Positions 555-47,953 of a stretch of 64,000 bases of DNA are shown in pieces. Below the pieces are notes generated by a model, which was given only the letters and a program-made list of their open reading frames with translations, was not told where the DNA came from and did not search any database. The position numbers and the translations under genes are program-made. The stretch is from Octopus vulgaris. Its lineage: Eukaryota. Each line of letters begins with the position of its first letter. Position 1 is the stretch's first letter. The stretch covers positions 29,140,001 through 29,204,000 of the forward strand of contig OX597821.1 of NCBI GenBank assembly GCA_951406725.2. Reading direction: 5' to 3'.

Positions 555-1960
555 TCATCATCATTTACCGTCCACTTTCCATGCTGGCATGGGTTAGACG
601 GTTTGACTAGAACTGGTAAGCTGGAGAGCTGCACCAAATTCCAGTCTGGTTTGGCATGGTTTCTACAGCTGGATGCCCTTCCTAACAATAATTATAATGA
701 TGATAATGATGATGATTTAAGTACAAGGCTGTGAATTGAGAAGGGAAGGGATAAGTTGTTATCACCCCTCATACTGGGATACTATTTTATTTTATCAATC
801 CCAGAGGGATGAAAGTTAAAGTCGACCCTGGTGTGAACTAAAGACAATGTAAGGCGCTACTACAAATATGGCAAGGCATTTTTACTGATGATCTAATGCT
901 TATGCTTCTCCACTGCCATGATAATGATGATGATGATGATGAAAATGATTCTAACACTTTCTAAGTATTTCTTACCTAGGACAATGATCAGAAATTCAAT
1001 GGGCAGGGATAAGTCAATAAATGTGGTCCTACATTATTTACATTGGACGGATATGTGTCCTCATCTTGTTTGTTGTTACCACAACATTTTAGCCGATTTA
1101 CTCTCCAGCCTTCATCAGATGTCCAGGTAAAATTTTGAACCCAACCCTGTGTTCTCAAAATTCCACCTGGACACCTGATGAAGGCTGGAGAATAAATCAG
1201 CTGAAACATCATGGCAACAACAAACAGGATGAGGACACATATTCGTCCAATGTAAATAATGTAAATAGTGTACAGAATTCCTCATTTCTAAAATATACAA
1301 CAGTAAGATGATCCTAATATTTGACTGATACTTATTTTATCAACCCTGAAAGACTGGATTTGAACACCAAACCTAAAGGGCCAGAACAAATATCATATGA
1401 TATTTTGTCCAATGCTCTAAAATTCTGTCAATCCACTGTAACAATAATAATTGTTTTTAACAAGTACACAAGACCTGAAATACTAAGGAAGGGGTTAGTC
1501 AATTATGCTGATCCTATTATTTGAATGGTACTTTATTTGACCCCACAAATCTGAAAGTAAGGTTGACCATGGCAGGTTTTGAATTCAGAACATAAAGAGC
1601 TGGAGGAATTATCACAAAGTATTTTATCCAAGACACTAATGCTTTCATTAATCCACCACCCTTCAGAAAAATAGTCCTTACTGCTATAAGAATAAGACCT
1701 GAAATTTTGTGAGAAAAATATATATTTCTTTACTGCCCACAAGGGGCTAAACATAGAGGAGACAAACAAGGACAGACGAAGGGATCGAGTCGATTATATC
1801 ACCCCCAGTGCGAAACTGGTACTTTATTTATCGACCCCAAAAGGATGAAAGGCAAAGTTGACCTATGCACAATTTTAACACAAAATGTAAAGATGGGTGA
1901 AAAGCTGCGGAGTATTTTGTCTGGTGAGCAAATGATTCTGCCAGCTAGCTGCTTTTATTA
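1..1960 (-). mobile_element. Cluster of ~6 same-orientation tRNA-derived SINE copies (family with 'gaggtcgactttgcctttcatcctttcggggtcgataaa' core, resembling Sauria/Meta-type domain) separated by (AAT)n/(GAT)n
   Basis: Repeated blocks 'actggtacttattttatcgaccccgaaaggatgaaaggcaaagtcgacc...gaatttgaactcagaa...ttctgccagct' at ~90-240, 340-480, 770-920, 1320-1435, 1525-1660, 1810-1950. Confidence 0.8.
1031..1298. mobile_element. Fold-back element with hammerhead-ribozyme-like motif in each arm (Penelope-like pLTR remnant) inserted in a SINE
   Basis: Inverted arms 1031-~1140 / ~1151-1263. Plus arm has CTGATGA(1175)-aggctg...cagct-GAAAC(1203); the minus arm carries a decayed mirror copy. Confidence 0.65.
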
Positions 1961-2135
1961 TAATAATAAAAAGAAGACAAGAAGTGAGAGAAGGAAAAGA
2001 CAGACACACACTTAATCACTTTGACTCTTTATTTTGAGAAGAGCAATTATTCAAAGACCAACAGAGAATCATGATTGTGATTATCATCACCATCTTTGAA
2101 TTTCTAAGACTCGATATTCACTTGGTCATGTATAC

Positions 2136-2284
2136 CTGTAGGTTGAAATTTGAATAACATATGGATATTTACAAAGCAGACATCTGATAAATAGGCTGGA
2201 AGTAGTGATAAAACTGGCAAAGATTATTACAGAGTCTGGTTGGCTGCTTTCTTAAAAATTTCATTCAGATTCCACATGTGCCAA
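2136..2284 (-). other. Candidate 149-nt non-coding/5'UTR exon of a gene continuing left of the window
   Basis: Acceptor tattttattttcgtttttattttTAG| and donor CAG|GTATAC bracket unique sequence between repeats; stops in all three frames near its start. Confidence 0.3.
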
Positions 2285-2329
2285 CTAAAAATAAAAACGA
2301 AAATAAAATAAGCCATTGGCTATTTGCCT

Positions 2330-2798
2330 TTAACCCTTTCTGCATTTAAACCAGCCATATCCGGCCCGAATACTTTGCTTATTTTATGTTCACACTGGCC
2401 AGATTTTGAACATAAAAAAAGAATAAACCTCACACACCTATCCTTCAATGTCATTCTGAAAATAAACAATCAGGCATGACTGTGTGGTAAGAAGATTATT
2501 TCCCAACCACATGGTTCTGGGTTCAGTCCCACTGTGTGGCACCTTAAGCAAGTGTGTTCTACTATAGCCTCAGGCTGACCAAAGCCTTGTGAGTGGATTT
2601 GGTAGATGGAAACTGAAAGAAGCCCATAATGTGTATATATATATATATATAGCAAATATATATATTGGTGGTATATATATATTGGCCTGCTTGCTTAGCC
2701 AGCGGGATGGCGTCATTCGAAGGGTAAAACAATGCGAACGCATTGTGACCAGCGATGTGCAACTACATCTGATGGACTGGTCGGTCACGTGATGGTGA

Positions 2799-2835
<37 letters not shown>

Positions 2836-3535
2836 GTTTCCATCTACCATTCTTCCCAAACCTTCTAGCAGTTCAAAACAACTGAATATTCTGAATATTC
2901 TTCAGCCAGTTGATAAACTCTACTACCTCAAATGTTCTTAAAATTTAAATCTACATCTTTGTCTATATATCTACCTTCTCTATAATGTGATCAATTGATA
3001 TGAAAATTATGTATTAATGGAAAACTTCTATTAATGGCTGTTGAGTGCTCAGCATTTTAAAACTGTTGTAATACTTACAACATTTAATAAAATGATGTAG
3101 CGTGAAACGATTGTACCAAATTACCGAAGTTATTCTTGTTGCTTATTTTGATTATATATATATATACATACACATATATGAATATATACATATGTGTGCA
3201 TGACTTTGTGTCTGTGTTTGTTACCCACATCATCAATTGACAACTGATATTGGTGTATTTACGGCCCCCATAACTTAGCAGCTTGGCAAAAGAGACTGAT
3301 AGAATAAGTACTAGGCTAACAAAGAATAAGTCTTGGGGTTGATTTCTTCAACTAAAAAAAGCCCTTTGAGGTGGTGCTCCAGCATGGCTGCAGTCAAGTA
3401 ACTGAAACAAGTACAAGAGTAAAAGTAATTACATCATCAAAATCTTGAAGCTGCAAGATAATGCATGGCCAATTCAAAAGAATGCGAATGAACTAGTATT
3501 ACATTTTACAGAATAATCTGAAAACTAAAGGGTTG
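2330..3535 (+). mobile_element. TTAA-CCCTT (piggyBac-type) MITE split by nested SINE insertions
   Basis: Starts ttaaccctttctgcatttaaaccagcc and ends ...tctgaaaactaaagggtt; homologous to the uninterrupted copy at 13621-13835; SINE pieces occupy ~2471-3425. Confidence 0.6.
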
Positions 3536-3549
3536 CGTTGCATATAGGT

Positions 3550-3956
3550 GTGCAGGCATGGCTGTGTGGTAAGAAGCTTTCATCCCAGCCACATGGTTCT
3601 GAGTTCAGTCCCACTGTGTGACATGTTGGCCATGTGTCTTCTACTATAGCTTCGTGCCAACCAAAGCCTTGTGAGTGGATTTGGTAGACAGAAACTGAAA
3701 GAAGCCTGTTGTGAATATATATATATGTATATATATTTGTGTGTTTGTCTTTGTGTCTGTGTTTGTCCTCCCACCATTGCTTGACAACTTATGTTGGTGT
3801 GTGTATGTCCTTGTAACTTAGCAGTTCAGCAAAAGGGACCGATAGAACAAGTACTAGGCTTACGAAGAATAAGTTCTGGGGTCGATTTCTAAAACCCTTC
3901 AACAGGGTGGTCCAGCATGGCTCCAGTCAAATGAGTAAAATGTGAAAAAGAATAAA
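3550..3956 (+). mobile_element. tRNA-derived SINE family A (head + 'ggcaccttgggcaagtg' CORE-like box + internal TA/TG microsatellite + tail)
   Basis: Matches copies at 4505-4930, 8897-9288, 18415-18780, 29485-29892 and 60505-60897. Confidence 0.85.
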
Positions 3957-4504
3957 AGGCTATCCAAAGACTGTGACACATCATTCATCTCTACTCCAAT
4001 TATCCTCCATATTTGTGTCCACTCCTCTTGATCCTGAATTAACCACTAGTCTCATTCTTTGACCTCCAGAACCTCAGACCTCCAGGGATTTATTTTCCCT
4101 TACTGGTAAAACTTGCAACTATTTGCGAGAGAAATGTTAACCCTATAGATTTTTCCAGTCGCAGGGGGCCTACAAAGGCCATAAGATCAGCCACTTCATC
4201 CAAACTAAACAAAATAATTCAAAGAGAAAAATTAATAATAAATAAAGATAATCATCATCATCTTAATCATCATTGTTTTAACATTATCTTGTTCATGCTT
4301 ATACACATTAGATAAAATGCATTCAGGCAGAAATTCTACAGCAGGATTCTATTCTTGTCACAAGCCCTCATCTATTTTCAAGCAGTTTGATATTTCCACC
4401 CTGCCCTGGGTCGCTTTTAAGCATGGAAATTGCTTATATACAAACATCAATGTGTGCATAATGGTCATGTTTCATCCATTCTTTTTTCTTTGTATACAAT
4501 TATA

Positions 4505-4666
4505 GGCATAGGAGTGGCTGTGTGGTAAGTAGCTTGCTTACCAACCACATGGTTCCGGGTTCAGTCCCACTGCGTGGCACCTTGGGCAAGTGTCTTCTGC
4601 TATAGCCTCGGGCCAACCAAAGCCTTGTGAGTGGATTTGGTAGACGGAAACTGAAAGAAGCCCGTC

Positions 4667-4711
<45 letters not shown>

Positions 4712-4930
4712 TGTGTGCGTGTATATGTTTATGTGTCTGTGTTTGCCCCCCTCTCCCAACATCGCTTGACAACCGATGCTGGTGTGTTTACGTCCCCATA
4801 ACTGAGCGGTTTGGCAAAAGAGACTGATAGAATAAGTACTAGGCTTACAAAGAATAAGTCCAGGGGTCGATTTCCTCGACTAAAGGCCGTGCTCCAGCAT
4901 GGCCACAGTCGAATGACTGAAACGACTAAA
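4505..4930 (+). mobile_element. tRNA-derived SINE family A, young full-length copy
   Basis: A-box-like tggctgtgtggt, B-box-like gggttcagtccc, CpG-rich and little decayed. Confidence 0.9.
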
Positions 4931-5589
4931 TGAATAAATGAATAAATAAATTAGTAGAAAATTAAAAGGACACACGCACTTACATACAGAGTACATGTAT
5001 ATGATGGCCTGCTTTCTAGATGGGTTGCCACTATCATTTCTATACAAGACAAAGTCAATGCAGAGAACTTTACCAAGTTGTGCTTCTTTGAAAGGGAGGG
5101 GAAGGAGAAGCAACCAATTTGTCATAGTATGTTTCCAAAGAATATTTTAATATACATACTGACATCTTTGATAAAAAAATTTCCCAGTTAGACATGCCAT
5201 GTGATGTTTCCAAACTCTGACTAAACTCAGGAGAGCTTATTAAAACAAATTTGTTATTTTAGGAAGAGTTGAATCAAATATCATTTAAAAAAATTTTTTC
5301 TAATATCCAAACAATTCTTCAAAAGTGGCCAATCTTCATGAATATCAAAAGAAGGATGAGGCTTGATAGTTTAAAAGTGATGATATGATTTTCCCCCAAG
5401 ATGAATTATTTACAACTTAAAAAGTTACATTATTCCAAGGTTTAAAATATTAACAAGACACCTGGGCATGATGGAATGCGAAAGACTATCAAATCTTATA
5501 TTTAGTTTACTAACAAACATGTGAAATGAAAATACAGATTTAAAGATACAAACATTTTTTATGAAATTTCAAATAAAATAAAAAGAAAT

Positions 5590-5675
5590 TATATATATAT
5601 GTACATATATACATACATATATATACATAAATATATACATATACATAGATTTATATACATATATATACATACATT

Positions 5676-5715
<40 letters not shown>

Positions 5716-5744
5716 CATACATACATACATATATATATACATAC

Positions 5745-5775
<31 letters not shown>

Positions 5776-5819
5776 CACATATATATACATATATACACAT
5801 AAAAATATATGCATATATT

Positions 5820-5875
<56 letters not shown>

Positions 5876-5922
5876 TATATGCATATATATACACATATAC
5901 ATATATATACACACACATATAA

Positions 5923-5957
<35 letters not shown>

Positions 5958-6060
5958 TATATATGTATATACATACACACACACACATATACATACACAC
6001 ACACATATATATGTATACACACACATATGCATACACACACACACACACACACATATATAT
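5590..6060. repeat. Compound (TA)n/(CA)n/(TACA)n microsatellite
   Basis: Directly visible; source of spurious YI/YM ORFs. Confidence 0.95.
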
Positions 6061-6844
6061 GAAAGATAGCAACATGTGATTAGCCCTCCGCAGATTATAG
6101 AGAATAGGAACAGAAACTTCTATTGGACTGGTTTTTATGGGCAGAAGCCGCTCATTGCAAGATTACAATCAAGAATTGTGTTGAAGTGGACAAAACATCA
6201 TAAAATATTAAGCCACCCTCTCTACCGACGCCAGCAGTGGTGAACAATGAAAGGACGGTCCACAGCAAGTGCTTCGTTTTCTCTCTCTCTCTCTGCCTCT
6301 CTGGCATAGCATAAAGTGAATCGATAACTAGGTAAGTTTATTATTATTTTTTCCTCCCCGCTTTTCTCAAACAGCCTTTCGAACCATTATTCTGATGCTG
6401 GTGTTAGTTCACATTATAGTTCTGTTTATGTGAATATTAACATGAAAAATGTCAGAGATAGTGCTTTTGAAGAATAGATAACATTTATCGCACCACATAG
6501 TCAGCTATTAAGCTGAATCACAACAACAACGTCTATAGCGTTATTATTATCATCATCAATAATAATAATAATAATAACAACAACAATATAAAATTTCACA
6601 ACAACAACGACAATGATGACGATGGATGATGATGATGATAACATTGATTTCTTATGCAGGCAAAAGCAAGGCACGTGTGGTAGAGGAGGTAGAAATGATT
6701 GATTGATCGATTAAATCGGACCTAGTACATTACTGATACTCTCTGTACTATTCCACCCCCCTCCTGTACATCCCTTCACCACCAAACACCACACCAGCAA
6801 ATGCATAAGACTGATTCTGATCTGATGATGGGGTACTAAGGTTA

Positions 6845-6879
6845 TATATATATATGATATATATGTATATATATAGATA

Positions 6880-6912
<33 letters not shown>

Positions 6913-6915
6913 GTG

Positions 6916-6956
<41 letters not shown>

Positions 6957-7323
6957 TTGTGTGTATATATGTGTTTGTGTATATATATATATATATATAA
7001 ACACAAACACATATATTCATATATATATACAAACATATATATACACATATACATATATATCATCATCACCATGGCGTAATGTCCATCTTGCATGGATATG
7101 CATACATCTATACACACACAATTTATATATATATATATATAGATATACATATATGAAAGAGAGAGAGAGAGAATGAGAGAGAGAGAGAAAGAGAGAGCTA
7201 GTTACATGCTGCTATTACTGCTATCTTGTCACTCTGATATCTCCTAACACAAAACAATCATCATGTAAATTTAAAGATGACGATGATGTAGCAGTAGTAG
7301 TAGTTGTAGTAGTAGTAGTAGTT

Positions 7324-7362
<39 letters not shown>

Positions 7363-7365
7363 ACA
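6845..7365. repeat. (TA)n/(TG)n, (GA)n and (GTA)n microsatellites
   Basis: Directly visible. Confidence 0.9.
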
Positions 7366-7753
7366 ACAACAACAACCCAATCAATATATAAAAATACATT
7401 TTTATTTGAAGTGAAGCATAAATTTATCATTTATGATAGCTGCATTTCACAATTAGAAATGACTCATATTTTTTTTTTTACCTAATTTGCTTATAATATT
7501 AATATATTTTGATTTATTTAGTTTTATATATATATATATATGTATACACACACACGCATACACACCACACACACATATACTTTATTAATAAGGCTGTATT
7601 TATGTGCTTATTCTGGCATATATATAATATATATATATATATATATACACACACATATATATATATATATATATATTTCAAAAAGATAGTTTAGTTTTAA
7701 AAACTTTCTACATTTAAACAATTTTTATACAGTTCTATCACATGCATATATAC

Positions 7754-7789
<36 letters not shown>

Positions 7790-7843
7790 AATAAACCACA
7801 TCTGATGACAATATTGTTGGGAATGCAGTATAATTAGTAAACG

Positions 7844-8093
7844 ATACAGGTATGGAGGCATACATACAAGACTAAGTTCCTGTGTCAACAATTCAATGAT
7901 TTTTGCAGGTCTTCAGCTGGTGCAAACCCATTCAACATAGCACCATCAATTGGTTACAAAACACAAGAAGCAAAATCACAGGCAAACTGATGGTTCTATG
8001 TGCACCAGGCTTGCACCAGCTAAGGGCTTGCAATGATCACTGAAATGTTGACTATAAACTTAAAGTTGCGAATGTAAGTCTCAACAACTGTAT
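7844..8093. repeat. Old imperfect inverted repeat (fold-back/MITE-like)
   Basis: gtcaacaattcaatgatttttgcaggtcttcagctggtgcaaacc pairs with ggcttgcaccagctaagggcttgcaatgatcactgaaatgttgac; the inner accatca/tgatggt also pair. Confidence 0.7.
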
Positions 8094-8122
8094 TATTTAA
8101 AACACATACACACACAAATATA

Positions 8123-8650
8123 TATGCAAAGTCTGATCAGTAGAGCTTTGAGATCATTGTGATGGTATATGGAATGAAGGTACTTGGTACAGATTGACCT
8201 TGAACATGATCATGTATGCACACTGAGATATAACGTTCTTACTGACTTCTGTTGTTTATTGGGAGTAAAGCGTGTCGAGTGTGGCTGTCTCAAAACAAAG
8301 ATTGGGTTGCAAGTGTGCAGCATCTTCTTTCGATGCTGTTGAGGAAGATGCAAACTTTTTGAAAATGGTCATAACAAGTGACAAATTGTAGATCTATGAT
8401 CATGACCCTGAAACTAAGGCTCAGTTTTCAACTGTGGAACACACAGAATATATTTCAAGATGTTGAGGAAATCCAGGTGAATATGATGAGACAGCTGCTT
8501 GCTCTCCCAAAAAGGAGTTCCAGGAATTCTTCAGTCAATGAAAATGATGCTGGATAAAGTGTGTAGCTTCAGACTTCTTCATAGGAGAATAAATACAAAA
8601 TTAATTGAGTTATAGTTGTACCAGTCCCAAATTTTTTATTAGACCTCATA
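8123..8650 (+). mobile_element. Internally deleted, decayed mariner transposon
   Basis: Translates EEDANFLKMVITSDKL*IYDHDPETKAQ (mariner ITGDETW..YDPETK) and FQDVEEIQ...*CWIKCV (C-terminal RWxKCV); degenerate TIRs with TA flanks. Confidence 0.8.
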
Positions 8651-8896
8651 TGTATACTATATTCTCTGTGGCTGGACATAGCCTCTTTTTAATTTGGCAA
8701 TCTCTAGGATATAGACATGCGTGCACGTACATACTCACACACATAGAAAGTCATTTTCTAGATAGCAATATTCAGCTATCACCTTGGAAATTTAGTCAAT
8801 GAAACGAAGCTTAGCACTTGGTTTTAAGTTGGGTAATAATTCTACATGTAACTTTTTGTTGAACTACTAGGTATATAGATGAAAACAATCCAATAC

Positions 8897-9288
8897 TCTT
8901 TTACTTGTTTCACTCATTTGACTGTAGCCATGCTGGAGCACCACCTTTAGTCGAGCAAAGTGACCCCAGGACTTATTCTTTGTAAGCCCAGTACTTATTC
9001 TATCGGTCTCTTTTGCCAAACCGCTAAGTTACGGGGACGTAAACACACCAGCGTCGGTTGTCAAGCAATGCTAGGGGGACAAACACAGACACACAAACAC
9101 ACACATACATATATATATATACATATATATAACAGGCTTCTTTCAGTTTCCGTCTACCAAATCCACTCACAAGGCATTGGTCGACCCGGGGCTATAGCAG
9201 AAGATATTTGCCCAAGATGCCACGCAGTGGGACTGAACTCGGAACCATGTGGCTGGTTAGCAAGCTTCTTACCACACAGCCACTCCTG
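8897..9288 (-). mobile_element. tRNA-derived SINE family A, full-length
   Basis: Reverse complement of 4505-4930. Confidence 0.9.
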
Positions 9289-9679
9289 TATCTATAGAAA
9301 GTCATCAACAAAAGAATCACAAACATCTCACACACATACATATAAAATGGGCTTCTCTTTATCAAATTTACTTATAATGAAAACTGACAAGTGAAAGCTG
9401 ACTAATGTCAATTTAGGATTGCCCAAGATGCCATACAGTAGAAATGAACCTGAAACCAGGTACTTATTTATAGTAAATGCACTTAATATTGCAGAGAATA
9501 AATATGAAAACATCAAATAATGTACTATCTTTTTGAAGAGTGTCCTCCTTGACATAACAACTCACTAATTCTCATGTTGCATACTAATATTTTATTAAAC
9601 TTACCAATCTATAAATTATATATTCACTTGGTAATTCTCTCACTTTTATCAGAACTTGATAACAAACATGACAAAAGTC

Positions 9680-9735
9680 TATGCTTTCCTGATGAGGTCA
9701 TAATAAGACCAAAATTTGTGAAGGTTTGTTTCCTT
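9680..9735 (+). ncRNA. Decayed minimal hammerhead-like motif (Penelope-type)
   Basis: CTGATGA(9689)-GGTC-ataataa-GACC-aAAA; GAAA lost by a CpG-type G>A change. Confidence 0.4.
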
Positions 9736-9894
9736 TACTTGCCAAAAAAATAAAATATAATACCAGTCATCGACTTATATCATTTCTTGCTCATTAAAAA
9801 AATCATCTCAGAAGGAAAAAAAGGACTGGTCATAGTGATTAGTGTAGAATCTAGGGTGGAGATGGACAAGACAAAGGGAGACAAGTGGAGTGGG

Positions 9895-10181
9895 TTGTGG
9901 AGGCACATGGCCTAGTGGTTAGAGCAGCGAACTCGCGGTCGAGGGATCGCAGGTTCGAATCTCAGACCGGGTGATGTGTGTGTTTATGAATGAAAACACC
10001 TAAGCTCCACGCGGCGAACTTCTGCTGACTCTTTCGCCACAACTTTCTCTCACTCTTTCCTCCTGCATCTTGCAGCTCACCTGCAATGTACCGGCGTCCC
10101 GTCCAGGTGGAGAACCTGTACGCCAAAAAAACCAGGAAATTGGCCCTTATGAGCCAGGCATGGCTCGAGAAGGAACAAACA
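9895..10181 (+). mobile_element. tRNA(Arg)-like SINE family B (octopus OR-type) with 14-bp TSD
   Basis: Head ggcctagtggttagagcagcg...ggttcgaatc, (AAC) tail; TSD acaagtggagtggg at 9881-9894 and 10182-10195; minus copy at 30640-30950. Confidence 0.9.
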
Positions 10182-10384
10182 ACAAGTGGAGTGGGAATAC
10201 CTGAGAACAGAAGCAGTGATAGTAACAGCAGATACTTATATTTAAGCAGAACATAAGTAGATGGGAATATAATTTTTATCTCTCTAAGCTTTGTGGTTAT
10301 TAGTCTGAGGTAGAGGTGTATTGAGTACAAGAAGTTATCCTAATTTTTTTAGAAATAAATCATTTAAACCCGCTACGATACATA

Positions 10385-10750
10385 TAGGTGCATGTCTGGC
10401 TGAGTCGTAAGAAGCTTGCTTCTCAACCACACAGTCCAGGGTTCAGTCCCACTGAGTGACACCTTGGGCAAGTGTTTTCGGCTATAGCCTTGGGCTGACC
10501 AAGGCCTTGAGTGGAATTGGTAAACGGAAACTGAAAGAAGCCTGTCATATATATATATATGTGCCGGTGGCACGTAAAAAGCACCCACTACACTCTCAGA
10601 GTGGTTGGTGTTAGGAAGGGCATCTAGCTGTAGAAACTCTGCCAGATCAAGACTGGAGCCTGGTGCAGCCATCTGGTTCGCCAGCCCTCAGTCAAAATCG
10701 TCCAACCCATGCTAGCATGGAAAGCGGATGTTAAATGATGATGATGATGA
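10385..10750 (+). mobile_element. SINE family A head joined to an alternative tail ending (GAT)n
   Basis: The tail 'ggcacgtaaaaagcacccactacactc...aggaagggcatc...gtccaacccatgctagcatggaaagcggatgttaaatgatgat' recurs at 17390-17585, 27180-27545, 28300-28430, 31090-31262 and (minus) 555-685. Confidence 0.8.
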
Positions 10751-11444: not shown

Positions 11445-11665
11445 AGCCGGCTGAGTTGTTAGCATGCTGGGCAAAATGCTTTGCGGTATTTCATCTATCT
11501 TCACGTTCTGAGTTTAAAAGTTAGCCTCCGCTGAGGTCAACTTTGCCTTTCATCCTTTCAGGGTTGATTAAAAAAAAAAATTAAGTACCAGTTGAGTACT
11601 GGGGACAATATAATCAACTAGCCCCCTCCCCCAAAATTTCAGGCCTTGAGCCTATAGTAGAAAGA

Positions 11666-11702: not shown

Positions 11703-11704
<2 letters not shown>

Positions 11705-15754: not shown

Positions 15755-15798
15755 TCTATTCGTTCAACTATTCTAGTACCTTCGAATTATCGTGGAAA

Positions 15799-15884
15799 AC
15801 CATGCTGATGAAGAATATGGTTAGTAAAGTATATTTTTTTATATTCATTATGAGAAACCTAATTCAGAAACGCGCATCCATGGA
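15799..15884 (+). ncRNA. Minimal type-I hammerhead-like ribozyme (Penelope-type), one CpG decay
   Basis: Stem I ccatg/catgg; CTGATGA 15805-15811; stem II gaat...attc; GAAAC 15867-15871; palindromic GCGC loop; aTC (from GTC) cleavage triplet. Confidence 0.6.
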
Positions 15885-16839
15885 CGACCAGATATTGATT
15901 GATTTTCGTTGTTTTATTCTCTGCCAGTGTGAATAACCTTCAAGTATTTTGGTTTCTCTGGAAGACCCTTTTTAAAGTAGAAGAAATAGCTAAGATTTTT
16001 GGCTGCTATTTCTTAACTTCGGTGTGTGGTGAAGCAAATCTTTGCTGAACCCTTTTATTAGTATATATATATATAAATATCCATGATGGATTTCTCTCAG
16101 TTTCCATCTACCACATTCACTCACCAGGCTTTGGTTGGTCCAAGGTGATAGCAAAAGACACTTGCCCAAGGTGCCACACAGTGGGACTGAACTGAGAGCT
16201 ATGTGGTTTGGAAGCAAACTTCTTACCACATAGCCACACTTGTTTTTCCCTTTGCTTGGTCTGTAATAAGGGACAACAGCCAAAATAATTTAGATCAGTG
16301 AATTCAATTATTTAGAATTGCATTTTGGTTTATATTTATTTAATTTTCTACTTGCTGGGTTTAGAAGAAGGCGCAGTACCAAAGATTGTTGGCAAGCCCT
16401 TTCAAGTCAGTGAATTTCATGCCGTTAATGTTCTTAGGGAATCAGCTTTGTAACTCAACACTAGCAGAGAGAGAATTACAGAGGTCTAACATTCTAGGAA
16501 GGAAAATACTGGGATAAAATTATTAGTGCAGGATCTGGGATGGAAATGGATGTGACAAGCATGATGAGAAGTGAGGTGTGGGCTAAAGTTGCTTGAGTGG
16601 AGATCACATGAGTGCAGCTTGCTCCAAAGAACAGAAGAAAAGAGAGAACATACATGTGGTCCAGATGCTTGACTGTGTCTGTGAGTGACTTTATGCCAAT
16701 TAGGTAATTAATCAAATGTTTGGAAAAGAAATTTTGATTTTAATATTTTCAACTAGAGTGAATGTAAATATTTTAAAAAGCAATTTCATTTCCAAAGTTG
16801 AGGTTAATAGTGGGGAAAATTTATCTTCTTAACCATACA

Positions 16840-18414: not shown

Positions 18415-18780
18415 TCTTTTACTTGTTTCAGTCGTTTGACTGCAGCCATGCTAAAGCACTGTCTTTAGTCGAGCAAATCGACCCCGGTACTTATTCTTTG
18501 TAAGCCCAGTACTTATTCTATTGGGGACGTAAACACACCAGCATCGGTTGTCAAGCAATGCTAGGGGGACAAACACAGACACACATGCATACATATATAT
18601 ATATATATATATATATGACAGGCTTCTTTCAGTTTCCGTCTACCAAATCCACTCACAAGGCTTTGGTTGGCCCAGGGCTTTAGTTGAAGACACTTGCCCA
18701 AGGTGCCACGCGGTGGGACTGAACCTGGAACCATGTGGTTCGTAAGCAAGCTACTTACCACACAGCCACTCCTACGCCTA
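18415..18780 (-). mobile_element. tRNA-derived SINE family A
   Basis: Reverse complement of 4505-4930 with a small internal deletion. Confidence 0.9.
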
Positions 18781-19173
18781 TATGATAAATTCTACATAAG
18801 TTGCAAATAATTCTTGTTCTATATTTCTTAGATTTCTCACTTATAATTCTGTATGGTGAATTGGCAGAATCATTAAACCCATCCAGTAAAATGCCATGTC
18901 GGATTCATTCTGGTTCTTTACTTCTAAGTTCAAATCTTACTGGAACCAACTTTTCAATTTTTTTTTTTTTTTTTTTGCCACATAAACACATGCACTAAAC
19001 TTTGAAAGAAGTATCTATAAAATTAGTTTTTATACATTGAATGGTTACGGGGGTCCAACAGAATAAAATAGTAATCAAATAGGTAAAAAATGGTCGAAAA
19101 CCACTGATCTATGAAATTGAAGCATACATTAAATTAAATTAAAACAGGCAACTATATGTAATTCATGTATATA

Positions 19174-19507: not shown

Positions 19508-19759
19508 ATGTAATTCATGTATATGTACACTGGTAAGTTCCTTCAATATATACAGTTTTTAATGACTTATGAAAACGTTTAATATACTTTGTAGCATATT
19601 ACGGTTGCATAATGAAATACTGTGTGCCTACAAGTCCTTGATATTTACATACCAGCTTCCAGGAATGTGTTTAATATGTAAATTAGTAAATCCAATAATG
19701 CTGCATGGCTATATGTAGTGGCTATTTAATCAATCAGTTCATGCATGATTAATGGACTA

Positions 19760-19810
19760 GATGGATGCTGATGAAGGAGGAAAAATTCTCGAAATATGGC
19801 GTATATGCCC
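19760..19810 (+). ncRNA. Decayed hammerhead-like motif
   Basis: CTGATGA(19768)-aggag...ttctc-GAAA-tatggcgta-TA. Confidence 0.4.
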
Positions 19811-19994
19811 CTCACCCATTTCTTCATCTTCAGTCTCATTGTTTGTTTGTTTACATCGGACATTTGGATATGAAACATCGCAACAAAATCAGTGCTGGTT
19901 ATAATTTCTTATAGAAAATCTGTAGAGATGACTTTAACACTTAATAGTGTTTTTAATACAGCTCACCCCAAAAGATTTTATCTAAAATGAAAAT

Positions 19995-36214: not shown

Positions 36215-36261
<47 letters not shown>

Positions 36262-39200: not shown

Positions 39201-41037
39201 TGGCTGTAGCCAAGTGACCCTTGATATTATAAAAGAGCACTTGCATGCATATTTTTAACACACTGTTATAATGAACTGTAGAGTCTGCTCTTGTTAACTA
39301 ACATCCCCATGAAATGTTAATTGATATGTAGCAAAGCTCAAAACACTCCCCATCCACAATCCACCCACATATCCATCTCCAAGTGATTGTAACGACTGCC
39401 AACCTCACTACTGTCAGACAGAGAGAACTTCTAAAAACACACTGAGATCTAGAGAATCTCCAAAGACAATTAATTTAACAAAGAGATGGAGGGATTTAAG
39501 AGAACACATTATCAGAAACATAACAGTGACAAAACAAAAGAGTGATGCCACAGTGCTAATATCATTTATCATAATATGATTATAAACGGAAGTGAAAAGC
39601 AGAATTGATAGATTGCCAGGCATAATCCCTTGCAGTATTTGATTAGATTCTATGCATTGTAGTTCAAATCTCACTGGAATTAACCTTCACTTTCAGTTCA
39701 CCCAGGGGTTGAGGAAATAAGAAGCAGCAAATTTTATTGACAGTGCTTGACTTCAACATTTGAGACTGTGTGTCTACATTAAGAATTATTGCTAATTATA
39801 TAATGATAATGAGTAATACTAATTGTAAGAAAATCAAAATTACTAAATGAAATATAATTCTAGAAATAAGGAAATAAATCTAATCACTTCTAAACCCTTT
39901 ACAGATGTGTTTATATTAAATAAGATCGAAAATCATTGTTATGAAGTAAAAAATAAATAAGGGAGCAGTTATTAAGAAAAAATATTTTCAGTATAAATAA
40001 ATAACTACTTTAATAATGATAAAAATAATAATGGTTAATTGTTGATATTCCTGAAGTAAAACTGAAAATTAAATTAACATATGAATAGGATATTAGAGAC
40101 AATATGGCCTCTGGAATGTGAAGTGATGAAAATCTGACTAGGAATAGAAACTAGGGGCAGTTGTTACAGTAATAATTCTTTCTGCCATATGCACATAGCT
40201 TGAAAGCATAAAAGACATAGTAATCTCAGTGGAATTTGAACACCAAACGTATAACCAGAAGAAATACTGCAAAGCGTTTTGTCTAGTATGCTAACAACTC
40301 TGCAAGCTTGCCACCTAAATTGTCACAATGATAATAAGAATTCCTTGCTTTAGAATATGTGTGTGTGTTTGTGTGTGTATACATGCACGCATCAGAAAGG
40401 AAAAGAGATACAAAAGGAGAGTTGAAAGGAGAAGAAACGTGAAGAGAAGGGAAGTGATAATGTATGAAAGATGAGATAAAAGGCAAGTAAGGAAAATAGA
40501 GATAAGAAGAAGAGATAATAGATGGGAGATGAAATGAAAGGAAGTTAAAGATGAGAAGAATCAGAGAAAAAAAAAAAACTTGAGATGAAAGATGAAAATC
40601 TTTGACAACAGTAACCATTGTCAAAAGGCAGTAAGGAAATGTTTTTGAAAAATTTAGAAACGGGGAAAAGAATTGACCCTAGACTGCAGAATCCTCTTAT
40701 GGGTGGAGCTTACCCTTTATGTGTCTATAGCCTGAGTAAAAAAAAAAAAAATTCAACAGGAAAATAAAGTTAAGAAAACTGATTAGGTGAGGAGAAAGTG
40801 CAAAACAAAATCATCTTGAGTTGAATGGCTATTTAAAGATGGATATCAGAAACAAAAATTTGAATCAAATAAAAGCTGAAGGTGTTGGAATTAATAACAT
40901 AGATTTGAAGAAAAAAAAAATATAAAGAAAAAGAAAAATAAAGGTGGAAAAAAAGAAACAAACTAAGTAGATGAATACTTGTTTCTAAGAATACTATATA
41001 ACACTATATTTTATGGTAATATACATATATATTAAAT

Positions 41038-41081
<44 letters not shown>

Positions 41082-41488
41082 GTGTATACATATATAATGT
41101 AAATATTATATATAATGTACACATAACATATATTAAATGTAATATATATATGCATTATATATATATATATTCATATTGTATATAATATATATATATATTA
41201 TTACATATACATTATATATATATATATACCTTATATATATATATATATATATATAAGCATAAAATATATATACATACAGTACATATATAGAGAGCAAAAG
41301 AAACAGACAAATGGACTGAGGGATAAAGACATCTACATACAGGGTAAACATGATATACTGCACAAATATATGCATATATTGGTGCACGTGTCACTATTGT
41401 CAAACATGTTTTCACTGTAATATGTGTATCCTTGTATCTGTGATATGATATGAATTATAAAACATGCGTGCATAGATAATACATACAT

Positions 41489-41547
<59 letters not shown>

Positions 41548-42829
41548 GTAGGTGTTTGTGTCAATAGGATTGATCATCTGTTAATCTTTCATTCTGACCA
41601 TGGAATGCCAAATGACTATTTAGCTTATACTAATGCTTATGATAGATAAATAATCTTGCTATTACAAGCAGCAAATACACACATGCACACTTATATGCAT
41701 AATATATATGTGTGCATGTTGTGTGCATATGCATTTCTTTTCTATACATGTGTATACTTATATAATGTACAGAGTAGTTTCTGTTCAAGTGTTATCACAC
41801 ACAAAAATATATAAACTTGTACAAGGAAAGGTTAATAGTAACTTCAAAGTTTCTGCATACTAAGCATCATCAAATGATGGCTAGTATGCCTTTTCCTTAC
41901 AAAAATTGATAAGTACTCCACTAGTACGTACTGAGAAATCCTGCACGCCCATATATATACATATATAAAAACATACATACACACTTCAAGAATATGCAAT
42001 ATTCCTGAAGTATATACCAGTTGTTTATATCTAAATGTATTATATATACACACATTTATGAATAATCTTCTTATGTATAAATTATTGAAATTATATACTT
42101 ACTGCTTGATATGTTGATATGAAACATCTACTTATTTATGACACTTTCAAAGACCAATCTAGGGGAATTTTGAAGACATATTCTCTCACCAAGAAGAGTT
42201 TGCTAACAGGAAGGTTCTACGTGCTAATTAAGCTTATTTTACTGTATATAATTATATTCATGAAACTGAATTGGGTAGTTTGTACTTTATAAAATTTAGT
42301 ATTATATGTAGCGAATGTTTGGTACCTACATAAGTTTACTGACTGCCAACTGATGGTCATTTTTAAAGACAAAACCTGCAAGGTGTAGATTGCGCTATTG
42401 TTTTACATGATGAACAACACATAGAAACATGTGGGTGCATAACTAGAAAGCTAAAGTAAGTGTGTGCATGTGAGTAAATTTAATTAGTTGATAAACAAAA
42501 ACCTAGAGAACTTACAGCTCAAATTAATCTAAAAGGGTCCCTTTATACTAATTATAAAGTTAGCTTAGCAGAGTGCTATGACATCCATGCAGCCTTCTTC
42601 AGAGAAGTAAAAGCAGGGAGACAACTCAAGTGTTAACATTTCTGAAATAATTGAATTTACTAAGAAATGCCTAAACAGTGTTAAATATATTTGATATTGC
42701 TGAGATTTCATGTGATAGGTGTATATGAATGGATTAGCAGGTATATATGAGTAGGAGTGATATTTATTAAACATGTGATCAATATGATTTTGTGCATTTG
42801 TTCTTTTATATACGTATATAGATAGAAAG

Positions 42830-42910
<81 letters not shown>

Positions 42911-42936
42911 TAGATAGATAGATAGATATAGATATA

Positions 42937-43185
42937 TAGGGTAAAAAATTACTAATTTGATAATTAACAATTTCACCAAGTAGTTTGGAATGGAAAAAAA
43001 ACCATTATCGGTAAAACTTATATAAAAAGTTTTTTTTATAATTATAAACATAATTAAGGGATCAGCAAAATTTGTTTCACCACATACCAAAATTTAGAAA
43101 TAGCAGTCAAAAATTAGTAGTTTGACTGCTATTTCTAAGTTTTGGTATGTGGTGATGCAACTTTTGCTGAATCCCTTAATTATGT
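42937..43185 (+). mobile_element. Fold-back element ('tagggtaaaa' terminal segment + 138-bp palindrome)
   Basis: Palindrome 43048-43185 centred on tagaaatagcagtcaaa...tttgactgctatttcta; inserted in (TA)n. Confidence 0.75.
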
Positions 43186-43448
43186 ATATATATATATGTA
43201 CACATATACATATATATATATCTTCAAAGTTTTGAAGTTTGATTTTCCATGTTTGCATGGGTCACATGGAAATTATCTAGGTAGATCTTCAACAGCCCAA
43301 TACCTTTCCTATCACCAACACTCACTTGTTTTCAAGCAAAATTATAGCTTCCCGGTAGAAAACATGCTTACATGTAAGACTGAAAACAAATGACACCACT
43401 TAGATGACAGTGACATTTTTTAAAACTATTGTGCCATGTCAAGAGTCA

Positions 43449-43449
<1 letters not shown>

Positions 43450-43497
<48 letters not shown>

Positions 43498-43864
43498 CAT
43501 ATATATATACATATATATGGGGAGCTTCTTTCAGTTTCTGTCTACTAAATCTAATCACAATTCTTTGGTTGGCCCAGAACTGCTGTTCGAAACAATGTAT
43601 CACTCAGTGGGGCTGAACCAGGAACAGTGTATATACATACATACACACACACATATAGATATATATATACATACATATATATATATATATACATATACAT
43701 ACATATATATACATATATATACACATACATATATATACATATATATATATATACACATACATATACACATACATATACATATATATATATATACATATAC
43801 ATATACACATACATATACATATATATATATATACATATATATGTATATATATATGTATACATGT

Positions 43865-43950
<86 letters not shown>
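43450..43950. repeat. (TA)n/(TACA)n/(GA)n microsatellite with a SINE head fragment (43515-43625, minus)
   Basis: Directly visible. Confidence 0.9.
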
Positions 43951-43952
<2 letters not shown>

Positions 43953-43980
43953 TTTAATAGACAGATTAGAGATGCATAAT

Positions 43981-44940
43981 ATAAAATTTTATCAAATTAA
44001 TATCTAGAATTCTTATTCTGAATCCTATAAATTATATAGAGTATGTACGTTTCATGAGCCTTTTACGTCTTGAGCTTATTGCTGAAAAAGGTCTCGAAAT
44101 TCAATACCGTATCAATTCAACTATGTTACCAATCTTTAGGTCTGGATTATATAAAACTATTTTTCTATTTACATCCAATATAAAAACATTTTAGTATTGA
44201 CATCCAATATAAAGACATGACAATTACAATATTCTAAAATGTATTGGTTTAGTAATTTGGTGTACTTGTTTGCCTATCTTTATGTATGGTTGTTTGTTGA
44301 TGTAGGCATATTAAATAAAATAAATGAACCACGTAAAAATTTGACTATTCCCATCATACAGTTATTTTCGGCTTCTAGTTTTTTATCACTTACTTCCCTC
44401 ACATGGTAAATATATAAAATAGTAAATATATTTTAAGAACTCTTAAATGTTAATTTGTTATTTTCGGCTTCTAGTTTTTTATCACTTACTTCCCTCACAT
44501 GGTAAATATATAAAATAGTAAATATATTTTAAGAACTCTTAAATGTTAATTTGAATTATATCCCATACACCGTAGCTCTCAAAGTTGGATTTATGTTCTT
44601 TACTAGGAAGCCATGATTAATTTACGGCGAGGAATTACCAAAAAGATAAGTTAACATTTCTTGTTCATATTTTTTAAATTTTTATCTCTTAGTAATGAAA
44701 AATTATTTTCGAAGATTTATAGTTGTATAATTGTGATTGTCATGTCTTTATGTTAAATAGTAATATAGTTTTATATAATCTAGACCTGAAGATCGGCAGT
44801 ATAGTCAGATTAATATGGTATTGAATTTCGAGACCTATTTCAGCAATACCGATAGATATTGTCATGAAACACGTGTAGTCTATATAATTTAATATAGGAT
44901 TCAGAATAAAAATTGTAGATATTAATTTGATAAAATTTAA
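43981..44940. mobile_element. ~960-bp element with long diverged inverted arms carrying a hammerhead motif (inverted Penelope-like pLTRs)
   Basis: 43981-~44230 is the imperfect reverse complement of ~44725-44940; internal 96-bp tandem duplication 44361-44456/44457-44552. Confidence 0.7.
44781..44882 (+). ncRNA. Type-I hammerhead-like ribozyme with enlarged loop II
   Basis: Stem I TAGAC/GTCTA perfect; CTGAAGA 44786-44792; GAAAC 44866-44870; palindromic ACGT loop; GTA cleavage triplet 44875-44877; stem II imperfect. Confidence 0.6.
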
Positions 44941-45106
44941 TATATATATCTATCATAAATAATGTCGTTCAATGTAGATTGAGTTGCTTGGAGGTGGTTC
45001 TGTCTCTTAAACCTATCTATTTATATAATACAGGGAGTAATTCATTTTAGTACCACTAAATTGAATTTCTCTCCCCTGTGGACTCAGAAATAACTTCCCT
45101 AATATT

Positions 45107-45149
<43 letters not shown>

Positions 45150-45235
45150 TTGAAATTTAGAGAAAAACAAAAGACGAAGACAAGTGTATAAATAACAATC
45201 AGGGGTATTAGTTTAATGTTTGTGAAGGTGAGAAA

Positions 45236-45275
45236 GTCTTTCACGTTTCGAGCCTACGCTCTTCAACAGAAAGGA
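45236..45275 (-). ncRNA. Minimal hammerhead-like variant within a Penelope-type 3' end (~45145-45330)
   Basis: rc: cttt-CTGtTGA-a-GAGC-gtag-GCTC-GAAAC-GTg-aaag. Confidence 0.45.
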
Positions 45276-45834
45276 ACATGAGGAAATAAAAAAAAACTTT
45301 TGGAGCTAGCGGCCAATCTGTTGAATGATATGATTTAATCTAGGGAAACCCTGAGGGGGCACTTCTATGAACAAAGGTATTTCAGTTGTTATCATACTTA
45401 CATAATTGTGTGAAGGTTACACAGAATTACATTGTCTAAAATGTCCATTCCTTATTTCAGACAACACAGGGTCATTTAAAAAGATGTAGGTGCTATTTCT
45501 AGTGAATCCATTAAACACATAAAAGCTCTCTCATTGGCTCAATGCATACTATTCATATTCATTCAGTCACATATTTATGCTTCAGATTTGTTTCATTTAA
45601 TGTATTGTTATGCTTCTGTACACAAATAAATATTTATCGAGGATATGGTCATGTCCATTTTAAATATGTATATAGTAGTCTAATATCTTTTTATTAAAAT
45701 AATTCTTATCATATTTTTTTTTTACATATGGACTTCTGAATCCTATTTTTCATGATTTTATGGTTTACACTGTATTTTAATTAGCCCTTACCTTTAATCA
45801 TCTTTATTCATCTTATATACACACTTGCCCACCC

Positions 45835-45891
<57 letters not shown>

Positions 45892-45901
45892 AATATACAC
45901 G

Positions 45902-45957
<56 letters not shown>

Positions 45958-47910
45958 TACACACACACACAAATCTTCTAGAATGGCCTGCATGTAATGG
46001 TTCATATATATGAAATCTTTATATCCTGCCCCTTATTTGAAAAGGAGAATCTTGCCCAAAATATTATAGGATCATTAAAGAACCTAGCAAGGTAATGCAT
46101 ATTCTTTCCTTTGTTTTCATGCATTGACATCACCTTACATATATTGCCTAATTTCTCACCTGTATTATTCTAATGTCCTTTTATAAGCTAATATATATAT
46201 ATATATATGTTGAGAGAGACACACATACATACAGAAACACATATGTATACATATTTCTTTAAGCTGTGTTTGTATTCAGAACCTTTATTTCTAATGACAG
46301 GTGTAAGACAATAACACAATGGTTAATGTGCATTAAAAACTTCCATTGGGAACAAATTTTCTGAGATGAAAAAATCCAGCCCAGAGAATATGTATAATTG
46401 TATAAGCTAGAAAAAACTTTGATCGGATTCAAATGCAGGGTGAAAAAATATATAGATATATATAAAAAATATATATTAAAAAAGTCTATGTAAGATGTGT
46501 TAATAATGTTAATCTTAATATTGATATTAATTATTATTACTATTATTGTTATTATCATTATTATTATTATTATTATTATTATGGAGATATGACAAAAAGC
46601 TTGGTTTATATTGTTTTTCTTTTATATTAAGCTCATATAAGAAGTACATTCTTAATCATTCATTTAGCAGCCAAGCTATTGAAGAACATAAATGGCACAA
46701 CATTAAATTGGTCAACAAACATTCTGTAAATTTGAACAGGAAAATGAGTTAGTGTATGTGTGTATGTGTGAACACAGATTTCTTTGAATGCTGACAAAGG
46801 GGGTGGGTTGGGGATGATGCTACCTCAAAGAATGTCACATTAAGAAGATGCCTACTGTCCACACTGAAGATACAGTGTGTATAGTTGGTTGAGCTGAAGC
46901 ATGTAGATTTAAGTGTTTGTAAAGGAAACTCATAAACACCATACATTCAAACTCAAAACCCACAAGCTGAAATCTAATATTTTATTCATTTGGTTACTGT
47001 GCAGAAAAGTTATTGAATGTATAAACTATGGATACTTAAATTAGTTGGTAAGGACGAGTCTATATTCATTAAATAGATATGGGTGTGTGTGTGTTTTTGT
47101 GTGTGTGAGTGTATGTGTGTGTGTGTGTGTAAAGCATAATTCTCTCAAGGTTTCTCGATATGATTCTCTGAGAAATAGATATTTATCTACTGATATTTCT
47201 GATGCCTGATGAAATGCCAGGTGATTTCTGATTGCATAATGCATCAATTATGAATAAATTACCATACTGTTAAGACATTGTAACATGTGTTCAATTGTTA
47301 TTATCTATTCGGCTTTTTATTTGATATGTATAAACACACACACACACAATCATCATTTTACCTCTCTCAGTACTGAAATAGGTCAGACAAGTATAACAAT
47401 GCTTTGCTAGTTTATGAAAGAAAAATAAAAAAAATTTTGTGTGTTTTTTTACAATTTTTCATGTCTGGATACCTGTCTCTTCACCAACTCCTTACAGAAT
47501 GGAGAAAACAGATTGAATTGTGCAATCACCCCTAGTTAAGCGGATGTCTACAAATAGTTATAGATATATGAATAGGTACATATGAGTTTATATATACTGT
47601 AGATATGTTATTCCATCATTAGACTAGACTATAAGTCTATATGCCTTGCATTACCTGAATGAACAGAATAAGAAGTAATATTGGGAATATGTTTTCTCTT
47701 TCAGCGTATTTGATGCTGTGGGAGGCAAAAGTAATTTGTTCCAAAGCAAGGATATGTATATACACATACACATGTAAGTAATTATCTATTATCAAATGTG
47801 TGTGTGTGTGTGTGTGTGTATTGGAAACATAATAAAATTCTAATTTCATTTTCTTTATAAAGGAGCTTTTCTGGCCCTTGTAGTTGGGTGTAATAAAATT
47901 CTTAAGTTAA

Positions 47911-47953
47911 TCATCAACATTTGTAGAACTTCACATTCTCATCTTCAGGATGA
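47911..47953 (-). ncRNA. Decayed hammerhead-like motif
   Basis: rc: tcatc-CTGAAGA-tg-agaa...ttct-ac-aaat-GTT-gatga (stem I tcatc/gatga intact, GAAA decayed). Confidence 0.35.

What the first reader, a model, noticed from the sequence alone, without database searches (positions are those of the whole stretch)
1031..47953. At least 7 sequence-diverse minimal hammerhead-ribozyme motifs with no RT/GIY-YIG ORF: a candidate non-autonomous Penelope/retrozyme-like system
Seen: CUGANGA...GAAA(C)...UH cores at 1175(+, mirrored on -), 9689, 15805, 19768, 44786, 45236-45275(-) and 47911-47953(-). Several have correct stem I pairing and short palindromic stem III (GCGC, ACGT, CG). Established: Penelope-like elements carry minimal type-I hammerheads in their pseudo-LTRs, with palindromic stem III thought to allow dimeric cleavage, and often leave inverted pLTRs. 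Inference: the flanks are unrelated between copies, so many independent families have left roughly one such motif per 7-9 kb here, mostly ORF-less. I am not aware of this being catalogued in octopus but cannot check.
Basis: partly seen in the sequence, partly recalled or inferred. Interest (0 to 1): 0.72.

Follow-up and report, generated by a model that had tools for sequence, protein, structure and literature searches.

The report
Penelope retroelement stubs carrying hammerhead ribozymes
The seven motifs are worn copies of seven genome-wide repeat families with a hammerhead self-cutting-RNA shape: three are tail ends of protein-coding Penelope-type jumping genes, three are short non-coding units that likely borrow the same enzymes, and one is unresolved, which is a known arrangement rather than a new system.

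Summary
All seven cores exist, and each belongs to its own interspersed repeat family. Alone they are not above chance: a strict descriptor finds 0-1 in the window, and 4 of the 8 motifs carry a core substitution. Family rows found by homology restore the type-I hammerhead, F2 stem I covaries, and 580 kb of arbitrary genome gives 9 strict hits against 0.1 in shuffles. The window has no Penelope ORF, but 'non-autonomous' fails for three: F1, F3 and F4 lie downstream of Penelope-like RT/GIY-YIG ORFs elsewhere. F2 (573 nt), F6 (about 400 nt) and, more weakly, F5 (312 nt) are ORF-less head-to-tail units; F7 is unresolved. Likely mechanism: target-primed reverse transcription by Penelope enzymes, in cis or trans. 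No pile-up of copy starts at the cut site was seen; cleavage is untested. Known: Cervera 2014, Craig 2021 (lists an octopus Hydra hammerhead), Li 2026 preprint. The scan found this pattern before on other DNA of this genome. New members of a known kind.

The parts
1029..1157 (-). F1 left arm: inverted 3' stub of a coding Penelope-like element; hammerhead 1079-1123 with G12 to A
1150..1309 (+). F1 right arm with one-sided tail; hammerhead 1170-1214, core intact, stem I and palindrome decayed
9588..9801 (+). F5 old copy; hammerhead 9684-9725 with two core changes; family probably a 312-nt ORF-less unit
15758..16064 (+). F2 copy = positions 166-473 of a 573-nt ORF-less head-to-tail unit (94.5%), between (TA)n runs; hammerhead 15800-15883
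19560..19946 (+). F6 copy, nearly one turn of a 397-407-nt ORF-less unit; hammerhead 19761-19812
43967..44189 (-).
44228..45144 (+). F3 right arm: 3' UTR, hammerhead 44781-44882 and tail of a Hydra-type Penelope-like element
45131..45318 (-). F4 3' stub of a GIY-YIG-coding (Neptune-like) element in the (TA)n next to the F3 tail; hammerhead 45238-45273, U at position 6, H17 is G
47881..47982 (-). F7 old copy; hammerhead 47911-47953 with G12 to C; coding parent suggested but not shown
48511..48594 (-). further F5-like remnant (profile E 2.6e-9; no blastn support)
59895..59979 (+). further F5-like remnant (profile E 4.9e-9)
63854..64000 (+). F1-family 3' piece: tRNA-like segment and (AAT)n; its internally deleted hammerhead lies at and beyond the window end

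Best explanation
The motifs are decayed copies of seven repeat families with a type-I minimal hammerhead, three of them 3' ends of protein-coding Penelope-like elements and three short ORF-less head-to-tail units, all likely inserted by Penelope-type target-primed reverse transcription. Shown: family membership, core and stems at family level, ORFs upstream of F1, F3 and F4, the fixed head-to-tail junction of F2 and the tandem units of F6 and F5, inverted arms, one-sided tails, (TA)n sites for F2, F3 and F4. Inferred: a GIY-YIG nick primes copying from a start inside the tail; most copies stop early or invert, which leaves hammerhead-bearing stubs; the ORF-less units would be read through from a head-to-tail dimer and copied in trans. 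The hammerhead would cut weakly, as a dimer through its palindrome or with protein help, and the cut is probably not needed for insertion. The copies in this window are likely inert. F7 is probably a fourth coding family.
For: F1: RT (RVT_1, E 1e-9) and a C-terminal domain whose 55 long relatives mostly carry RVT_1, 3 of them PF01541; the F1 hammerhead follows the ORF end in the same sense in 21 of 31 distinct loci (22 of 32 rows, one duplicate). F3: L160 has inverted hammerhead, RT (64-76% to an intact 838-aa ORF), C-terminal domain, UTR and hammerhead; the window's 44228-45144 matches its UTR at 82-87%; the intact ORF has KWK, DKT and CxCX5C as described for Hydra. F4: sense-strand ORF remnants upstream in 4 of 28 loci; ESM Atlas GIY-YIG clusters at 0.96. 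F2: of 30 loci, 25 reach the unit start; 19 have the unit's own tail directly upstream (17 by regex, 2 by eye), 6 are cut or inverted at the junction, none has another shared upstream; longest stop-free frame 83 codons. F6: upstream repeats downstream in 4 of 16 loci, F5 in 2 of 17, F3 and F7 in 0 of 17 and 0 of 16. F2 stem I: three core-near pairs change on both sides in 5, 1 and 4 of 33 rows; 0 of 500 shuffles reach the score. Intact cores in 30 of 43 F1, 14 of 16 F2, 18 of 19 F3, 9 of 19 F6, 11 of 16 F7 copies. Literature: PMC4209133, PMC11167929, 10.64898/2026.07.22.740005.
Against: No partner ORF was found for F2, F5 or F6; the intact Hydra families and the young Neptune-like family examined carry other hammerheads. 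F5 has 0 of 19 intact cores (the ancestral G12 is inferred from opposite CpG-decay products), and F4 only 1 of 30 under the canonical core. In F2 the G10.1-C11.1 pair holds in only 6 of 33 rows. The F1 alignment shows no obvious compensatory change (28 rows, read by eye). The covariation control ignores relatedness. Searches scored only the best 40 or 150 candidates, so a coding parent of F2 or F6 could have been missed. F7's ORF signal is weak (best E 0.012 at the expected place; similar noise in the control families). No intact F1, F3 or F4 ORF was seen. Nothing was tested at the bench.
Confidence: 0.8

Rival explanations
1. The ORF-less units (F2, F6, F5) are true retrozymes: the hammerhead cuts tandem transcripts into monomers, these are ligated into circles, and Penelope RT copies the circle more than once round.
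For: Longer-than-unit copies with one fixed junction; stem I covariation in F2; circles are shown for coral, mussel and axolotl units (PMC7229834, passages).
Against: A read-through dimer gives the same junction. Copy starts within -3..+5 of the cut: 0 of 13 F1, 0 of 23 F4 copies that span the hammerhead, 0 of 25 F8, 1 of 58 F2 (the F2 set was chosen by other queries and is biased). Only 1 of 9 frog dimers cleaved in vitro. Dead hammerhead mutants still insert in the PAc assay.
Confidence: 0.3
2. All seven are 3' stubs of coding Penelope-like elements; the tandem junctions are local duplications, and the parents of F2, F5 and F6 were simply not sampled.
For: True for F1, F3, F4; most stubs show no ORF either (F1: own ORF in 1 of 30 hammerhead-picked loci); searches were capped.
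Against: The same F2 junction recurs in 19 of 25 loci on many chromosomes and no other upstream sequence was seen; F6 shows the same in 4 loci.
Confidence: 0.1
3. All seven form one non-autonomous, ORF-free retrozyme-like system.
For: No ORF in the window; three families are ORF-less units.
Against: F1, F3 and F4 follow RT/EN ORFs elsewhere in the genome.
Confidence: 0.04
4. The motifs are chance matches in AT-rich DNA.
For: Not above shuffles in the window alone; 6 of 8 window copies fold no better than shuffles at z above -2; Rfam Hammerhead_1 gave only 15.1 bits (cut-off 34) on an intact F2 copy and no hit on an intact F1 copy.
Against: Homology-found family rows restore the changed core letters; 9 strict hits in 580 kb against 0-1 in 10 shuffles; covariation.
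Confidence: 0.01

Closest known systems
Minimal hammerheads in pLTRs of metazoan Penelope-like elements (Cervera and de la Pena 2014, PMC4209133; parts 1-2 of 4 read, supplement passages seen, one supplement file not searchable)
   Same: Type I, unpaired base between 9 and 10.1, palindromic positions 15.2-16.2, many families per genome, mostly single motifs of truncated elements, opposite-strand pairs 100-700 bp apart; mollusc examples (Lottia, Crassostrea) in the supplement.
   Different: These families are not listed there; F2 and F3 have 55-75-nt helix II inserts; F4 has U at position 6.
Hydra clade of Penelope-like elements (Craig et al. 2021, PMC8557442; passages, section 11 and supplement rows seen)
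   Same: KWK/DKT/CxCX5C, C-terminal EN, (TA)n insertion, hammerhead; Hydra-1_Obim with a hammerhead is listed for Octopus bimaculoides.
   Different: The F3 hammerhead differs from the listed Hydra-1_oBim motif; the elements here are longer than 3 kb with Asn-rich inserts. No tree against reference elements was built.
Animal non-LTR retrozymes (Cervera and de la Pena 2020, PMC7229834, passages; Li, Clavereau and Pollet 2026, 10.64898/2026.07.22.740005, parts 1-3 of 5, supplements not seen)
   Same: ORF-less head-to-tail units of 300-570 nt with one type-I hammerhead, low GC, beside active Penelope-like elements; proposed in print to be their non-autonomous derivatives.
   Different: F2, F5 and F6 are mostly dispersed one- to two-unit insertions with inversions and tails, not long arrays; RNA circles and cleavage are not shown; Li et al. 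sampled no mollusc (31 vertebrates, three insects, one anthozoan).
PAc Poseidon element of Anolis (Frangieh et al. 2024, PMC11167929; passages)
   Same: Tail from two internal RT starts, AT-rich targets, hammerhead in the pLTR.
   Different: Biochemistry done there only; F1's hammerhead sits behind a tRNA-like segment and an (AAT)n run.

Membership tests
Minimal type-I hammerhead (PLE type) | Core CUGANGA, GAAA, UH in type-I order | tested here: met
   Family rows of F1, F2, F3, F6, F7; 4 of 8 window copies fail it
Minimal type-I hammerhead (PLE type) | Same core in F4 and F5 | tested here: not met
   F4: U6 in 22 of 30 copies, 1 of 30 canonical; F5: 0 of 19 intact, G12 inferred from CpG decay
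Minimal type-I hammerhead (PLE type) | Helix I and II pairing with compensatory change | tested here: met
   F2, (6 of 15 pairs change on both sides); none evident in F1; other families not counted
Minimal type-I hammerhead (PLE type) | Palindromic helix III able to pair between two copies | tested here: met
   Family rows; self-duplex -3.5 to -13.3 kcal/mol for family-type palindromes
Minimal type-I hammerhead (PLE type) | G10.1-C11.1 pair | tested here: inconclusive
   Present in F1, F4, F5; paired in 6 of 33 F2 rows; U-U in F3
Rfam Hammerhead_1 (RF00163) | Gathering score 34 bits | tested here: not met
   15.1 bits on an F2 copy; no hit on an F1 copy or on window 44700-45400
Minimal type-I hammerhead (PLE type) | Self-cleavage as monomer or dimer | not testable with these tools
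   Needs in vitro transcription
EN+ Penelope-like element (F1, F3, F4) | RT followed by C-terminal GIY-YIG upstream of the hammerhead | tested here: met
   all linked ORFs are broken
EN+ Penelope-like element (F1, F3, F4) | 5' truncation, inverted arm, one-sided tail | tested here: met
   Window F1 and F3 pairs; inverted second hits in many F1 loci
Hydra clade (F3) | RWK-like, DKT, CxCX5C motifs, (TA)n target | tested here: met
   Intact relative L174 against the text; L160 keeps CxCX5C
Penelope/Poseidon (F1) and Neptune (F4) clades | Placement in an RT tree with reference elements | not tested
   Clade names rest on recalled motif patterns (absence or presence of the Cys linker)
EN+ Penelope-like element (F7) | ORF upstream | tested here: inconclusive
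   Collinear upstream homology to -730 in 3 loci; best protein match E 0.012
Non-LTR retrozyme (F2, F6, F5) | ORF-less head-to-tail unit with one type-I hammerhead | tested here: met
   F2 19 of 25 junctions; F6 4 of 16, F5 2 of 17 loci
Non-LTR retrozyme (F2, F6, F5) | Expression as unit-length linear and circular RNA | not testable with these tools
   Only contigs of runs guessed to be RNA were available

The most novel reading that the evidence does not exclude
In this genome the hammerhead fold is kept as a binding or positioning signal for the Penelope RT rather than as a cutter: F4 spread to roughly 40,000 copies (9 hits in 580 kb) with U fixed at core position 6, the youngest F2 subfamily lost the G10.1-C11.1 pair while its stem I kept covarying, and no family's copies start at the cut site. 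Together with young intact Hydra and Neptune-like ORFs in the same genome, the ORF-less F2 and F6 units would give a natural test of what the ribozyme does in Penelope transposition.
Probability: 0.2. Interest if true: 0.6.

Novelty: new member of a known kind. Interest (0 to 1): 0.27.

Why it matters
Modest. It adds cephalopod-like families to a known association and shows that, in one 64-kb stretch, hammerhead motifs come from both coding Penelope-like elements of probably three clades and non-coding derivatives. The genome also holds many near-identical intact ORFs of 780-960 codons, so it is a practical place to test trans-mobilisation of retrozyme-like units and whether the ribozyme must cut. 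The window's own copies are unlikely to do anything.

Tried and rejected
Rfam on the whole window gave microsatellite noise; the repeat finder was swamped by microsatellites. Pfam and NCBIfam did not recognise the endonuclease pieces; no solved structure matched the F1 protein. Search for a coding partner of F2: intact Hydra families A and B and a young Neptune-like family (784 codons) carry different hammerheads and share no unit sequence; the F2 3' part is shared with other abundant TA-inserted repeats whose parent was not found. RNA: no RNA holder listed; contigs of four runs laid on an F2 locus cannot show strand, ends or level. Cut-site start test was negative; in F4 439 of 462 hits were microsatellite matches and were dropped before counting. 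F7 ORF test inconclusive. Lunse et al. (PMC5785218) is not held and is known here only through a review's citation. Paper searches for an octopus or cephalopod hammerhead catalogue found only Craig et al. 2021 as relevant; subscription papers and bioRxiv supplements were not searchable. Sequence look-ups of F2 and F6 in earlier scan notes found nothing, nor did the near-place look-up. The re-ordered hammerhead of other scan notes does not apply: all seven are in canonical order.
Full report
Observation. The window is AT-rich animal DNA from a 2.8-Gb genome. All cited cores are present. Four of the eight motifs (seven plus the mirror) keep the invariant core (1175, 15805, 19768, 44786); four carry a core substitution (1118 G12A; 9689 G12A and H17G; 45238-45273 H17G; 47911-47953 G12C). 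In the window alone the motifs are not above chance: 1 strict hit against a mean of 0.08 in 12 shuffles, and with a second descriptor 0 hits with, and 1 without, the palindrome rule, the latter reached by 8 of 100 shuffles. Rfam listed no hammerhead among the 150 shown of 272 matches.

Family level. Each motif used as a DNA query returned a genome-wide family: F1 (1175) 2732 first-look candidates, F2 (15805) 271, F3 (44786) 360, F4 (45236) 1574, F5 (9689) 34, F6 (19768) 261, F7 (47911) 32 (at most 40 scored each). These copies were picked by homology to worn window copies, not by a ribozyme descriptor, yet their majority rows restore the changed letters: G12 in F1 and F7, the palindrome in F1, F2 and F3, H17 in F4 and F5. 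Intact cores: 30 of 43 F1, 14 of 16 F2, 18 of 19 F3, 9 of 19 F6, 11 of 16 F7; F5 0 of 19 (G12 inferred from the two opposite CpG-decay products); F4 1 of 30, because U sits at position 6 in 22 of 30 copies. In F2 (33 rows) three core-near stem I pairs change on both sides in 5, 1 and 4 rows; 0 of 500 shuffles reach the score, a control that ignores relatedness; G10.1-C11.1 is paired in only 6 rows. F1 shows no evident compensatory change. In 58 arbitrary 10-kb stretches a strict descriptor found 9 hits against 0-1 in 10 shuffles, and profiles found 14 F1, 9 F4, 11 of a further family (F8) and one each of F2, F3, F5, F6, none of F7: about one per 15 kb as a lower bound.

Coding parents. The window has no Penelope ORF remnant. 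Elsewhere, F1 follows an RT (RVT_1) and a C-terminal domain (55 long relatives, most with RVT_1, 3 with PF01541); the hammerhead lies within 800 nt downstream, same sense, in 21 of 31 distinct loci. Between ORF and hammerhead lie a tRNA-like segment (weak ARAGORN calls in 3 of 11 loci at that place) and an (AAT)n run. F3: locus L160 reads inverted hammerhead, broken RT and C-terminal domain, UTR, hammerhead, tail, and window 44228-45144 matches its UTR at 82-87%. Its RT is 64-76% identical to an intact 838-codon ORF with KWK, DKT and CxCX5C, the Hydra marks given in PMC8557442 section 11; L189 is a second ORF with an F3-like motif downstream. F4 has sense-strand ORF remnants upstream in 4 of 28 loci, matched to GIY-YIG clusters at 0.96. 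'Poseidon' for F1 and 'Neptune' for F4 are recalled from motif patterns, not tested by a tree. F7 shares upstream sequence to about -730 in three loci, with one weak protein match at the expected place (E 0.012): unresolved.

ORF-less units. F2 is a 573-nt unit. Of 30 loci fetched with its 5' part (two from one array), 25 reach the start; 19 have the unit's own tail directly upstream (17 by regex, L203 and L208 by eye), 6 are cut or inverted at the junction, and none has another shared upstream; the longest stop-free frame round the circle is 83 codons. F6 has tandem hammerheads 397 and 407 nt apart in two loci and upstream that repeats downstream in 4 of 16; F5 has a 312-nt tandem and 2 of 17; F3 and F7 have 0 of 17 and 0 of 16, and the single hits in F1 (1 of 46) and F4 (1 of 28) were not examined. 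No coding partner was found: the intact Hydra families and a young 784-codon Neptune-like family carry other hammerheads.

Mechanism. Shown: inverted arm pairs for F1 and F3 in the window, tails on one arm, 5' truncation, (TA)n sites for F2, F3, F4. Inferred from PMC8557442 and PMC11167929 (passages): a GIY-YIG nick primes reverse transcription that starts inside the tail; early stops and inversions leave hammerhead-bearing stubs; ORF-less units would be copied in trans from a transcript that crosses the junction. I favour an uncut read-through dimer over a ribozyme-made circle, because copy starts do not gather at the cut (0 of 13 F1, 0 of 23 F4, 0 of 25 F8, 1 of 58 F2), dead mutants still insert in the PAc assay, and drifted cores spread widely; an A6C natural variant has low activity (PMC3088659, passages). 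The junction data cannot separate the two, so the circle stays at 0.3.

Known work. Cervera and de la Pena 2014 describe thousands of such motifs per metazoan genome, mostly single and tied to truncated elements, with opposite-strand pairs and mollusc examples. Craig et al. 2021 list Hydra-1_Obim and its hammerhead. Li et al. 2026 argue that animal retrozymes are non-autonomous Penelope derivatives. Four paper searches found no catalogue of these particular families. Earlier scan notes report the same mixture on other DNA of this genome; my reading was recorded before I saw them, and they are not independent support.

Verdict. Real features, partly misread: three coding stubs, three non-coding units, one open. 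New members of a known kind; interest 0.27.

Noticed in passing
window 51981-53414 (-): Single long frame of a ZC3H10-like CCCH zinc-finger gene; best named relatives are molluscan at 57-61% identity.
   Followed up: partly
window 63854-63930 and F1 loci such as L065, L067, L152: A tRNA-like segment sits between the F1 ORF end and the hammerhead; possible pol III promoter. Noted before by the scan.
   Followed up: partly
L174-L184, L190 (one search list): At least two young Hydra-type families with intact 820-960-codon ORFs, Asn-rich inserts and hammerheads on both sides of the ORF in L184 and L190.
   Followed up: partly
L231, L233, L243 (one search list): Young Neptune-like family with many 784-codon frames whose hammerhead has the U3-A8 core swap reported for Schistosoma.
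   Followed up: partly
L180:1295, L045, L299, L307 and others: A further abundant hammerhead family (F8, 11 hits in 580 kb) related in shape to F4, with C3-to-U4 region variants in about half of the copies; not present in the window.
   Followed up: partly
window 43056-43177 and 58373-58531: Hairpin-like remnants that share the F2 3' part and tail but lack its hammerhead; an abundant TA-inserted group with no known parent.
   Followed up: partly
L168:1400-2170: A full F2 unit inserted at the central TA of a long palindromic element.
   Followed up: no
L258, L279, L282, L286, L300, L307, L313: Strict descriptor hits from at least seven further hammerhead families, several as inverted pairs.
   Followed up: no
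L152:5601-6985: Gag-like and protease-like frames of an LTR retroelement beside an F1 copy.
   Followed up: no
window 4501-4717, 9080-9296, 18569-18782: Three copies of a tRNA-headed SINE-like repeat, 86-90% alike.
   Followed up: no
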